Of a stretch of DNA of 64,000 nt, positions 1 to 3,000 are shown one piece after another; position 1 is the stretch's first letter; each line of letters starts with the position of its first letter. Position numbers: made by a program. Source of the DNA: Chitinophagaceae bacterium UBA1953 (GTDB lineage Bacteria; Bacteroidota; Bacteroidia; Chitinophagales; Chitinophagaceae); assembly GCA_002336115.1 (NCBI GenBank), contig DDEN01000034.1:33538-97537 (forward strand), given 5' to 3'.

Positions 1-3000
1 CGTGTATTAGCGTTTCGTCTAAGTCAAGGATTAAAAGCTTGTCCGATTTCTCTTCCATTGTCAACTAGTAAACGGGTCTGTAAGGTGGCATATAACGGTT
101 TCGGCTTGGCGGTCGGGCGGGCATTTGAAAAACGTCAGCCGACAACCGAAGCCAAATAGAATTATTAATGTTGAAGTTAAGAACTAAAGTTGAGCATTGA
201 ACGTCGAGCCCGGTACAAAAGTTGAATAGCAAACTGAAGTTGAGAATATATTGTCGTCCCCCCGACTGCCGCCAAACCGTTTGTTGCCTGTAGTTGTTCG
301 TCAATCGTTATTCTCAATAAAACTTATGAAGTCTGAAAATAATGGTGTGGGATTATATTGTCCACCACCATAGCCTAAGAATGAACCAACTAATTCTTTA
401 ACCAATCCTGTTTTTTCAAGTCTTGGTAGAATAAATTCTAATTCGTCTTTTGAGTATTTAGGATAATGCTTGGAAAACCAATAAGGGTCATTTGTCATAC
501 CGTCTTGTGCTTCATTGTCACCCTCAATCTTTATTTTTCTCTTTTCTTTTACGTCATAAAGAAGCAAGGCGATTTCAAGTTCCTTCTCTGTAAGTTCATC
601 AACAATTTTAAGGTAAAGTTCTGGGTCGTGTTTTCTATTTTGTTTTGTCAACGAACCACGAATAATTTGGGCAAATACTTTCAACTTTTCCCTTTGTCTC
701 GTTTTAGCAGCAGAAATGAAAGTTTTTTGAATTAAGTCAAAACCTTCTTCTGTATTGAAAGCAGCTTTGTCAATTTTGTCTTCCTGAATATTTTCCATCT
801 GCTCTTGCAACTGTGCAATCATATATTCAAGTCGTTCCTCTACAAACTTTTGTCCTGGCGTTGAAAGATATAAGTCAAGTTGTGAACCCACATAAGGAAT
901 TAATGATATTGCAGCTCTTAAATTAGTTAAGTCGTTATAAAAACTGCTATAAACCTTGATTTGAGTTTTAATGTCGGTCATACAATTACAGGCAACGTTT
1001 TGTAGCTTGGCGAAGTGGCGGATTTTGAAGCACTTACTTTCATTTTAGCACTAAACTTCATTTGAAAACCAAATGTTCAATTTAGCACTGAACCCGCCAT
1101 TTTGCCAAACTGCTGTTATGGGCAGTTTTTCGTCTTACCATATTTTCCACCATTTTTTCTTCACCTGTTCTTCTTCAATTTGTGTTCTCTTTGTTGGTTC
1201 AACTTTGTATTCGTCTAATAGCTTTCCGTCAAAATCAAACTTATATCTGTTATAATCCCAATCAGTCGCTAAAATATGGTCGTCATAAACAGCAAAATCG
1301 TCTATACCTTCTGCTGTTGTCCAAATATCTCGCCCACTTTGTTGCCAAATAATTATTCCGTCTTTGTCAAGCCTTGTTATTTCAAGCTCTCCGTGAACAA
1401 CATAATCTTTGTCAAGGTAGTAAATTCCAAAACAAGATGAAGAGTCAGAGATTGTTTTCCATTCTAAGTTTAATTCTGGAATTGTCAGTTTAAATATAGT
1501 GTTTGCACAACAAACTACAACTCCACCATAACTAATGAGTGTTGAGTTGTTACTTATTCCTGTTACTCCACCTTCTGAACCAATTAAGCAGTTTGCTATT
1601 AATTTTTCATCTTCAAATAATTCAATTCCAATTTGACTGGACAAAATTTTACTGCCACCACTCGTAAACACTTTTCCATAACTTTTTTTGACATTGTCAG
1701 AAGAACCAAAAGTATAGTCAGTCTCGTCATAAAATTTAATGGTATGTCTTTCTAAAACTAATACGTGTCTTGGTTCTTTCATAATTTAGTGGTCGTCTTA
1801 AAATTGCCCATAACGGACAGGGCTTGCCGAAGTACGGGAATTAGTATTCCGTCCGCCCGGAACCGATGTTGATTGAAAAACTGAAGATGAAGATAACAAC
1901 AAAAAGCTAAATAGATAATGTCCAGCCCGATATGAAGCACAATAGAATTACAAAAAGCCGAAGATAACTTCCGTCAGCCCGTATTTTGGCAAACCCCCTG
2001 TTGTACGTTCGCCCTATCTCCGCTGTCATCTATATTGATAGTACTGTTGCTACTTCCTGCCTGTGTTGTTCTGTAATTCCAATTGCTGTTGTCATTTTAT
2101 TTACTATTTATAAGTGAAAAATATTTTTAGTTTGCTAAAGAGGTTACTGCCCACAATGCTGCCGCAGAAATAATTAGCCATAAAACCACACCTTGTATCA
2201 ATGGTTTAAAGCCTACACTCTGCAACACTTTACGTGATAAGCCGCAACCGATGAGGAATAGTGTTAAGGTTAAACCTGCTTTGGCAAAGCCTGTTAAGTA
2301 ATGGCTGTACTGTTGTACAAAAGGAACATAAGTGTTTACAATCATTGCCAACACAAACAAGCCGATGAAATACGGAATTTTTATTTTGCCACCCTTATTC
2401 TTAAAAATAAAGGTTGATAAGAATGCAACTGGAATAATCCATAATGCCCTGGCTAACTTTACAGTGGTGGCTACTTCTAAAGCATGGGTACCATATTTAC
2501 TTGCTGCACCTACTACAGAACTAGTATCATGTATAGCGATGGCACACCACAAACCAAACTGTGTTTGAGATAAGTTAAGGGCATGACCAATAACAGGAAA
2601 TAGAAAAAGTGCTATAGAATTTAAAATAAAGATGGTGCCTAATGCCACAGAAATTTGTTTCTCTTCTGCTTTAATTACAGGAGATATAGCGGCTATAGCA
2701 CTACCGCCACAAATTGCTGTACCGGCAGATATGAGGTAAGATGTTTTCTTTTCTATCTTTAAAAACTTACCCATTAAAAACCCAATTACCAAGGTGCCAA
2801 TGATAGAAACGATGGTAAACACTATTCCTTCTTTACCTGCTTTCATGGCACTGGTAACATTCATGCCAAAGCCTAATCCTACCACAGAAACTTGCAATAA
2901 AATATGAGTGGCTTTATGATTTAGATGAAGATAAGGATGCCCGATAAATTGTGCTATCACCAACCCCATTAATAAAGCAATGGGTGGGGTAATAAGCGGA

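What the first reader, a model, noticed from the sequence alone, without database searches (positions are those of the whole stretch)
2017..2095. Truncated dps start inside the cassette: a fossil of capture from chromosomal DNA
31 nt after the yeiH stop, a 21-codon ORF (MTTAIGITEQHRQEVATVLSI*) resembles the Dps N-terminus and breaks off about 15 nt before the extended R'' signature. This implies that a lysR-yeiH-dps neighbourhood was cut mid-gene and joined to an attC. How cassettes originate is an open question. A payload ending inside the next gene argues for capture of a genomic or polycistronic segment rather than precise ORF copying.
Basis: partly seen in the sequence, partly recalled or inferred. 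Interest (0 to 1): 0.78.

Follow-up and report, generated by a model that had tools for sequence, protein, structure and literature searches.

The report
Dps gene stub: cassette deletion scar
The 21-codon ORF really is the first 20 codons of a dps gene inside a mobile integron cassette, but it was left by a 3,031-bp deletion inside an older, larger cassette, not by the event that first created the cassette.

Summary
Window 2095..2030 (- strand) encodes MTTAIGITEQHRQEVATVLSI*. It starts 31 nt after the yeiH stop, and its stop lies 15 nt before GGGCGAACGTACAAC (extended R''). Residues 1-20 are identical to intact 158-aa Dps-family proteins that follow lysR-yeiH in relatives.

The stub sits in a genuine cassette, window 4397..1814 (2,584 nt): leader, lysR, yeiH, stub, attC. 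The identical unit occurs at an attI-like site (window) and behind a foreign attC (L083).

Two metagenome contigs (L084, L085) carry the parent cassette of 5,615 nt. It has the same 5' junction, leader, lysR and yeiH (99.4% identical) and the same attC (96.4%). It also carries an intact dps, a malate dehydrogenase, a beta-propeller protein, a small membrane protein and a 158-nt tail. The window cassette equals the parent minus exactly 3,031 bp, joined at a 1-nt microhomology. Codon 21 and the TAG stop are made by the joint. The parent payload ends in intergenic DNA, so the mid-gene break is a secondary deletion.

The surroundings are more interesting than the stub: operon-sized cassettes, a leader/tail/attC "shell" shared by unrelated payloads, and a Xer-like recombinase that lacks the IntI insertion.

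The parts
2030..2095 (-). 21-codon stub ORF. Codons 1-20 and the first 2 nt of codon 21 (2095..2034) come from dps. The third base of codon 21 and the TAG stop come from the cassette tail.
2033..2036 (-). Deletion joint. The left parent reads ..CTATCCAT|TCTT and the right parent ..CCCACCTT|ATAGATG. The window reads ..CTATCAAT|ATAGATG. One shared T (2034) lies within an imperfect CC[A/T]T.
2003..2034 (-). The last 32 nt of the 158-nt cassette tail, 100% identical to L084:13093-13124. The rest of the tail, including its copy of the ~100-nt hairpin element, is deleted.
1812..2014 (-). attC of the lysR-yeiH cassette: extended R'' GGGCGAACGTACAAC (2014-2000), L'' TTTGCC, L' GGCAAG, R' GTT (1814-1812). 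The cassette ends at G1814.
2096..2126 (-). Native 31-nt yeiH-dps intergenic spacer, the same length as in L001 and L084.
2127..3149 (-). YeiH-family putative sulfate exporter (PF03601). It is 98% identical to the L001 and L084 proteins.
3189..4082 (-). LysR-family regulator (YeiE-like).
4083..4397 (-). Cassette leader. Positions 4397..~4196 form a 'shell' shared with cassettes that carry unrelated payloads; it holds the hairpin element at ~4335-4238. Positions ~4195..4083 are the native lysR upstream region.
4396..4398 (-). GTT crossover triplet at the cassette's 5' boundary. GTTGTACGT is complementary to the cassette's own R'' ACGTACAAC.
4399..4602 (-). attI-like region between the recombinase stop and the first cassette. 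The motifs TATAAC ... ATAATAACATAAATAC..GTT are conserved downstream of homologous recombinases.
4603..5850 (-). Xer-like tyrosine recombinase on the same strand as the cassettes. It has an extra ~130-aa N-terminal region and lacks the IntI-specific insertion.
94..1811 (-). The next two cassettes (ORFs 1135-1782 and 301-981) with attCs at 1117-994 and 285-94. Each R'' is complementary to the R' remnant at its own 5' boundary. The array continues past window position 1 (L081).

Best explanation
The stub is a non-functional scar of a 3,031-bp internal deletion in an existing, mobile, operon-sized integron cassette. The parent cassette is 5,615 nt: leader, lysR, yeiH, dps, malate dehydrogenase, beta-propeller protein, a 120-aa membrane protein, a 158-nt tail and the attC. 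It lost everything from the third base of dps codon 21 to 32 nt upstream of the R'' AAC. The loss was an illegitimate (slippage or end-joining type) event at a 1-nt microhomology. The joint supplies the last base of codon 21 (ATA, still Ile) and an in-frame TAG. What remains is the Dps N-terminal tail and essentially none of the ferritin-like domain, which spans residues 19-158 in the intact protein. The deletion spared the whole attC including its extended R'' stem, and it spared the 5' junction. The 2,584-nt derivative (regulator plus exporter with their own upstream region) therefore stayed recombination-competent and has moved since. It sits at the attI-like site next to the recombinase in the window genome and behind an unrelated attC in another sample. 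Shown here: the parent and derivative sequences, the exact joint, the length arithmetic, and several contexts that break at G|TT. Inferred: the molecular mechanism of the deletion, the loss of Dps function, and that the adjacent recombinase moved the cassette.
For: Parent-derivative relation. The window matches L084 and L085 over 4399..2037 at 99.45% and over 2034..1812 at 96.4%. There are 14 and 8 mismatches respectively and no other indels. The cassette lengths are 5,615 and 2,584 nt, a difference of 3,031 nt. Direction. In the long form dps is intact and collinear with the non-cassette loci L001 (93%), L003 and L086. The long-form tail is homologous to the tails of L084 cassette B and of the L002 cassette. 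Cassette status. Every R'' is complementary to the R' remnant at the 5' boundary of its own cassette. The short form is 100% identical in L083, where it lies behind a different attC. The long form occurs in two contexts. The bottom strand folds with paired ends and bulges. The joint is present in four independent runs, and low-depth dps-interior contigs co-occur in two of them. The ferritin-like domain spans residues 19-158 of the intact protein.
Against: L084 and L085 are metagenome assemblies and are not the literal ancestor: they differ from the window at 14 of 2,365 positions, including position 2036 right next to the joint. The attC part is more diverged (3.6%) than the payload (0.6%), which could mean an additional exchange in the attC region. 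No experiment shows that the recombinase acts on these sites. The deletion mechanism is inferred from a single joint.
Confidence: 0.93

Rival explanations
1. Primary capture scar: a chromosomal lysR-yeiH-dps segment was cut inside dps and joined directly to an attC when the cassette was created.
For: The stub is a true dps 5' end. Intact non-cassette lysR-yeiH-dps loci exist (L001, L003, L086). The break lies only 15 nt from the extended R''.
Against: A cassette with the same 5' junction, leader and attC and a complete dps exists at 99.4% identity. The window version is that cassette minus exactly 3,031 bp. The 32 nt between the break and R'' are the end of a longer tail shared with other cassettes. 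An independent capture would have had to recreate the same 205-nt leader and the same boundaries.
Confidence: 0.03
2. Integrase-mediated deletion: the recombinase recombined the attC region with a secondary site inside dps.
For: Integron integrases are known to use secondary GTT/GNT-type sites (established knowledge). The right breakpoint is close to the attC.
Against: Neither breakpoint contains GTT or AAC..CTATCCAT|TCTT and ..CCACCTT|ATAG. The right breakpoint lies 32 nt outside the R'' core, not at the crossover point.
Confidence: 0.03
3. lysR-yeiH-'dps is ordinary chromosome, and a cassette array or other mobile element inserted into dps and split it.
For: The genes lie between a recombinase gene and the first recognisable attC. 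LysR-YeiH pairs are common chromosomal genes.
Against: The unit has cassette boundaries: GTT|GTACGT at 4398, complementary to its own R''. It occurs 100% identical behind another attC and, as the long form, in two further contexts. No other dps fragment is present in the 64 kb.
Confidence: 0.01
4. Assembly artefact: a chimeric join at a repeat.
For: attC-rich arrays often break or mis-join in short-read assemblies. Contigs do branch at 1811-1817.
Against: The same joint sequence occurs in contigs from four runs, from different studies and years, at depths of 2-134x. It also occurs in L081, L083 and the window with 0 mismatches.
Confidence: 0.005

Closest known systems
Truncated or deleted gene remnants inside integron arrays, such as qacEdelta1 in the class 1 3'-conserved segment and fused or partial cassettes (established knowledge, not tested here)
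   Same: A gene fragment in a cassette context that was produced by a secondary deletion rather than by site-specific recombination.
   Different: Here the deletion is internal to one cassette. It spares the attC and the 5' junction, so the derivative is still a mobile cassette seen in several contexts. The near-identical parent is also available, so the joint can be read to the base.
Multi-gene cassettes of sedentary chromosomal integrons (toxin-antitoxin pairs, compact defence systems; bioRxiv 10.1101/2024.07.02.601686)
   Same: attC-bounded units that carry more than one gene, some with their own regulation. L084 cassette B carries a defence-type set of genes.
   Different: That preprint stresses small size constraints and streamlined systems. 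These cassettes are 2.6, 5.6, 6.4 and 7.1 kb and carry up to six or seven genes.
Chromosomal lysR-yeiH(-dps) sulfur and stress loci of Chitinophagaceae (L001, L003, L086)
   Same: Same gene order, same 31-nt yeiH-dps spacer, 80-93% nucleotide identity.
   Different: They have no leader shell, no tail and no attC. L001 is flanked by ArsR, a methyltransferase and a multicopper oxidase.
Canonical integron (IntI + attI + Pc + attC cassettes; IntegronFinder definition, PMC9024848)
   Same: An attC array with the R''/R' circular-permutation signature. An attI-like site next to a tyrosine recombinase, with cassette turnover exactly at GTT.
   Different: The recombinase lacks the IntI-specific additional domain and scores below both integron-integrase cut-offs. 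It is transcribed in the same direction as the cassettes. The host family is Chitinophagaceae, for which that survey reports no complete integron.

Membership tests
Integron gene cassette | An attC with R''-L''...L'-R' imperfect inverted repeats and conserved AAC/GTT triplets | tested here: met
   Three sites in the window and three more in L081 have AAC-N(4-8)-TTTGSC ... GSCAAG-N-GTT. The 16-site alignment keeps AAC, GTT and the L boxes.
Integron gene cassette | The cassette's R'' is complementary to the R' remnant at its own 5' boundary (the signature of a circular intermediate) | tested here: met
   GTTGTACGT (4398-) pairs with ACGTACAAC (2008-2000). The same holds over 10 nt for the five following cassettes.
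Integron gene cassette | The same unit is found in different contexts, with breaks exactly at G|TT | tested here: met
   The window (attI-like site) and L083 (foreign attC) are 100% identical from the GTT onward. The long form has different neighbours in L084 and L085. The L002 homologue lies behind yet another attC.
Integron gene cassette | The bottom strand folds into a hairpin with extrahelical bases | tested here: inconclusive
   The window + strand (bottom strand) MFE pairs both ends over ~27 nt with bulges; the top strand does not. The z-score is only -1.2 because of the long AT-rich centre.
Integron gene cassette | Excision and integration catalysed by the integrase | not testable with these tools
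   Needs a recombination assay.
Integron sensu stricto (IntI-encoding) | A tyrosine recombinase with the IntI-specific additional domain around patch III | tested here: not met
   TIGR02249 scores 183 bits (cut-off 265) in 2 stretches. The best hit is the XerA/integron-integrase model at 208 bits (cut-off 220). The alignment to VchIntIA (2a3v) skips chain residues ~214-247.
Integron sensu stricto (IntI-encoding) | An attI site adjacent to the integrase gene where cassettes are inserted | tested here: met
   The TATAAC...TTATAACATAAATAC..GTT stretch is conserved downstream of four homologous recombinases. L165 and L166 share the recombinase and this stretch and diverge right after the GTT.
Dps / ferritin-like (PF00210) | A ferritin-like four-helix-bundle domain | tested here: not met
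   The stub gives no Pfam hit. In the intact homologue the domain spans residues 19-158, and the stub keeps only residues 1-20.
Dps / ferritin-like (PF00210) | Homology of the fragment to a bona fide family member | tested here: met
   20 of 20 residues and 61 of 62 nt are identical to the start of proteins that pass PF00210 and whose best NCBIfam hit is Dps.
Primary cassette-genesis junction | No longer cassette with the same boundaries exists; the payload-attC joint cannot be derived by deletion | tested here: not met
   The parent cassette was found. Derivative = parent minus 3,031 bp.
Group IIC-attC intron-mediated cassette formation | A group II intron or a remnant of one at the attC | tested here: not met
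   An Rfam scan of window 1-6000 at E<=1 returned nothing.

The most novel reading that the evidence does not exclude
The stub itself is ordinary, but its carrier may not be. Chitinophagaceae appear to run integron-like arrays with a Xer-like recombinase that lacks the IntI insertion. Within these arrays, one conserved block is found around at least three unrelated multi-gene payloads plus a variant of the lysR-yeiH operon. In the circular cassette this block reads tail element, attC, ~205-nt leader with a second copy of the element. It could be a reusable capture or payload-exchange module.
Probability: 0.3. Interest if true: 0.8.

Novelty: new member of a known kind. Interest (0 to 1): 0.42.

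Why it matters
For the finding as stated, the main result is a correction. A gene fragment next to an attC looks like evidence for how cassettes are born. Here it can be shown, base for base, to be a later deletion, so such fragments should not be read as capture scars without looking for longer sister cassettes. On the positive side, the locus gives a rare parent-derivative pair of a mobile cassette. It shows that cassettes can carry whole operon segments of 5.6-7.1 kb and can shrink by internal deletion while keeping their recombination site. It also shows that the payload is collinear with non-cassette operons and ends in intergenic DNA. The shared shell and the non-canonical recombinase are leads that a specialist could follow towards the open question of cassette genesis.

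Tried and rejected
- Pfam on the 21-aa peptide alone gave nothing. It is too short, and homology had to come from syntenic loci.
- I searched the window for the rest of dps and found none. This weighs against a split-gene insertion model.
- The Rfam scan of window 1-6000 gave no hit, so there is no group II intron or known RNA in the leader.
- The L001 tail and head were searched for the leader or the attC, and none was found. L001 is a non-cassette locus.
- A loose regular expression for attC gave many false positives in non-array loci. I relied on the strict pattern plus L''/L' complementarity and the R''/R' rule.
- I did not build a covariance model of the 16 attCs (A4).
- My label 'DUF2892' for the 120-aa membrane protein was a recollection. 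Pfam and NCBIfam gave no hit, so I dropped the name.
- I considered recombination between the two element copies as the cause of the deletion and rejected it. The breakpoints are not in the elements.
- I considered a secondary-site integrase event and gave it low weight, because there is no GTT or AAC at the breakpoints.

Full report
**1. Observation**

On the - strand the window holds an ORF at 2095..2030 that encodes MTTAIGITEQHRQEVATVLSI*. It starts 31 nt after the stop of a YeiH-family gene (2127-3149, PF03601). That gene follows a LysR-family regulator at 3189-4082. The stub's TAG (2032-2030) lies 15 nt upstream of GGGCGAACGTACAAC (2014-2000), the extended R'' of an attC.

**2. Is it dps?**

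Pfam cannot score 21 residues, so I looked for syntenic relatives.

- A scan of species-representative genomes with the YeiH protein gave 80 loci.
- In L001 (a Chitinophagaceae MAG) nucleotide identity to the window runs from the lysR start (4083) to 2037 at 93.5% and then stops.
- At that point L001 has an intact 158-aa ORF whose first 20 residues equal the stub.
- L003 behaves the same way at 80% identity.
- tblastn of the L001 protein against the window finds only residues 1-20 (100% identity, E = 1.7e-7) and nothing else in the 64 kb.
- The intact protein passes Pfam Ferritin-like (PF00210, residues 19-158), and its best NCBIfam model is Dps.

The stub is therefore the N-terminal tail of a Dps-family protein and contains essentially none of the fold. 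The yeiH-dps synteny is real but rare: 2 of the 80 yeiH loci.

**3. Is it inside a cassette?**

Yes.

- Three attCs lie on the - strand, at 2002-1812, 1117-994 and 285-94 (AAC to GTT).
- L081, a contig from another run with 0 mismatches to the window over 14,082 nt, extends the array by three more.
- In every case the R'' of a cassette is complementary over 9-10 nt to the sequence that follows the GTT at its own 5' boundary. This is the signature of a circular intermediate.
- For the lysR-yeiH unit, GTTGTACGT at 4398 matches ACGTACAAC at 2008-2000. The cassette is 4397..1814, 2,584 nt.
- L083, from a groundwater run, is 100% identical to window 4399..1978 but is preceded by the end of a different attC.
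- In the window the cassette follows a 204-nt attI-like region and a tyrosine recombinase gene (4603-5850) on the same strand.
- The bottom strand folds with paired ends and bulges, although the z-score is weak.

**4. What made the stub?**

A metagenome scan with the L001 Dps protein returned L084 (a 1.16-Mb contig) and L085.

- Both match window 4399..2037 at 99.45%. They then continue with the complete dps, a malate dehydrogenase, a beta-propeller protein, a 120-aa membrane protein and a 158-nt tail.
- After the tail they match window 2034..1812 (the last 32 nt of the tail plus the attC) at 96.4%.
- The long cassette is 5,615 nt and the window cassette is 2,584 nt. The difference is exactly 3,031 nt, and there are no other indels.
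- The joint reads as follows. Left parent..GTACTATCCAT|TCTTTTAGC. Right parent..GACCCACCTT|ATAGATGACAG. Window..GTACTATCAAT|ATAGATGACAG. One T is shared, within an imperfect CC[A/T]T.
- Codon 21 (ATT in the parent) becomes ATA, and the tail supplies an in-frame TAG.
- Neither breakpoint has GTT or AAC, so the event looks like illegitimate recombination rather than a site-specific one.

The direction is long to short. The long form is collinear with the non-cassette loci L001, L003 and L086, and its tail is homologous to the tails of other cassettes.

Contigs from four runs (2013-2025; wastewater, groundwater and an isolate-like run) all carry the joint. In two of them, low-depth contigs covering the interior of dps are also present.

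**5. Consequence for the interpretation**

The payload is indeed a piece of a multi-gene operon. L001 has ArsR, a methyltransferase, lysR, yeiH, dps, the propeller protein, the membrane protein, a SoxA/TsdA-type cytochrome c, DsrE and two binding proteins. L086 has lysR, yeiH, dps, mdh and the propeller protein.

In the parent cassette, however, homology to L001 ends about 30 nt after the stop of the membrane-protein gene. On the 5' side it begins in the lysR upstream region. Both ends are therefore intergenic, and the mid-gene break is secondary. Flavihumibacter stibioxidans (L002) carries a third version of 6,428 nt. It has the same 5' junction and a homologous attC, but its payload is lysR, yeiH, the membrane protein, cytochrome c, DsrE and two binding proteins, with no dps.

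**6. Things noticed around it**

(a) The first ~205 nt after the GTT (the leader) and the tail plus attC also flank unrelated payloads.

- L084 cassette B is 7,097 nt and carries an XRE-type HTH protein, an OLD-like AAA_15/TOPRIM ATPase, an N6/N4 DNA methylase and a ResIII helicase.
- The second cassette of L165 has the same leader.
- The leader and the tail each hold one copy, in direct orientation, of a ~100-nt element with the hairpin TTGCAAGG-27 nt-CCTTGCAA. The L002 leader copy has one compensatory change.
- Leader copies resemble each other more than they resemble tail copies. The duplication therefore predates the payload differences.

(b) The recombinase is Xer-like.

- Its best PDB matches are archaeal XerA-type proteins.
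- Its alignment to VchIntIA skips the IntI-specific insertion.
- Both integron-integrase NCBIfam models score below their cut-offs.
- The family is abundant in Chitinophagaceae.
- Three homologues with long contigs are each followed by a conserved attI-like stretch and by attC cassettes.
- L165 and L166 have the same recombinase and diverge exactly after the GTT.
- The IntegronFinder 2.0 survey reports no complete integron in Bacteroidetes apart from Salinibacter (PMC9024848).
- A tyrosine-recombinase classification notes that the IntI insertion is 'not fully conserved' in its integron-like subgroup (PMC8138268).

I did not test these leads beyond sequence comparison.

**7. Verdict**

The stub is a deletion scar in a still-mobile cassette, which is a known kind of event documented here with unusual precision. 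Its own interest is modest. The operon-sized cassettes, the shared shell and the non-canonical recombinase are what deserve a follow-up.

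Noticed in passing
window 4603-5850 (-); L164-L167: The tyrosine recombinase next to the array is Xer-like. It lacks the IntI-specific insertion and has an extra ~130-aa N-terminal region. Homologues in Ferruginibacter, Hydrotalea and other Chitinophagaceae are all followed, on the same strand, by attC cassette arrays. Tools that require the IntI insertion would call these arrays CALINs.
   Followed up: partly
window 4399-4602 (-); L164:7195-7480, L165/L166:7190-7315, L167:7180-7420: A conserved attI-like stretch (TATAAC, ~45-55 nt, then TTATAACATAAATAC..GTT) lies downstream of the recombinase genes. 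L165 and L166 have an identical recombinase and identical sequence up to the GTT, and different first cassettes after it.
   Followed up: partly
window 4397-4196 (-); L084:13313-13516 and 20066-20412; L002:3013-3215 and 9090-9443; L165:8399-8573: The same ~205-nt leader and ~158-nt tail plus attC (R'' CGTACAAC type) flank unrelated multi-gene payloads. This 'shell' would be one contiguous block in the circular cassette.
   Followed up: partly
window 4335-4238 (-); L084:12967-13065, 13366-13470, 20066-20165: A ~100-nt element with an 8-bp hairpin (TTGCAAGG / CCTTGCAA, 27-nt loop) is present once in the leader and once in the tail, in direct orientation. One compensatory change is seen among seven copies. 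There is no Rfam match, and its function is unknown.
   Followed up: partly
L084:13314-20410: A 7.1-kb cassette carries a defence-type gene set: an XRE HTH protein, an OLD-like AAA_15/TOPRIM ATPase, an N6/N4 DNA methylase and a ResIII helicase. This is far larger than typical integron cassettes.
   Followed up: partly
L002:3014-9441 (Flavihumibacter stibioxidans YS-17): A 6.4-kb version of the cassette in a cultured strain. It has the same 5' junction and a homologous attC. Its payload is lysR, yeiH, a membrane protein, a SoxA/TsdA-type cytochrome c, DsrE and two binding proteins, without dps. It is a convenient experimental handle.
   Followed up: partly
window 1811-1817; runs X1 and X5: Contigs in single samples branch exactly at the R' GTT of the cassette's attC and continue with several different sequences. 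The cassette, or its attC type, therefore has several downstream neighbours within one community.
   Followed up: no
window 1135-1782 (-) and 301-981 (-): The two following cassettes encode 215-aa and 226-aa proteins. Neither has a Pfam or NCBIfam match above cut-off; the second has only a weak Abi_alpha hit (E = 0.004).
   Followed up: no
L001:28-2733 and 3650-5039: The closest non-cassette lysR-yeiH-dps locus lies next to a multicopper oxidase and an ArsR-methyltransferase pair. The methyltransferase gene abuts the lysR start codon, so the native lysR upstream region has been replaced there.
   Followed up: no
L004-L010 (Flavobacterium, Chryseobacterium): YeiH is 88-90% identical to the window protein in other Bacteroidota families, while the adjacent LysR is only 67-69% identical. 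This suggests mosaic loci or horizontal spread of yeiH. L007 has an attC-like site (4837-4959) just upstream of lysR and a recombinase homologue at 1789-2811.
   Followed up: no
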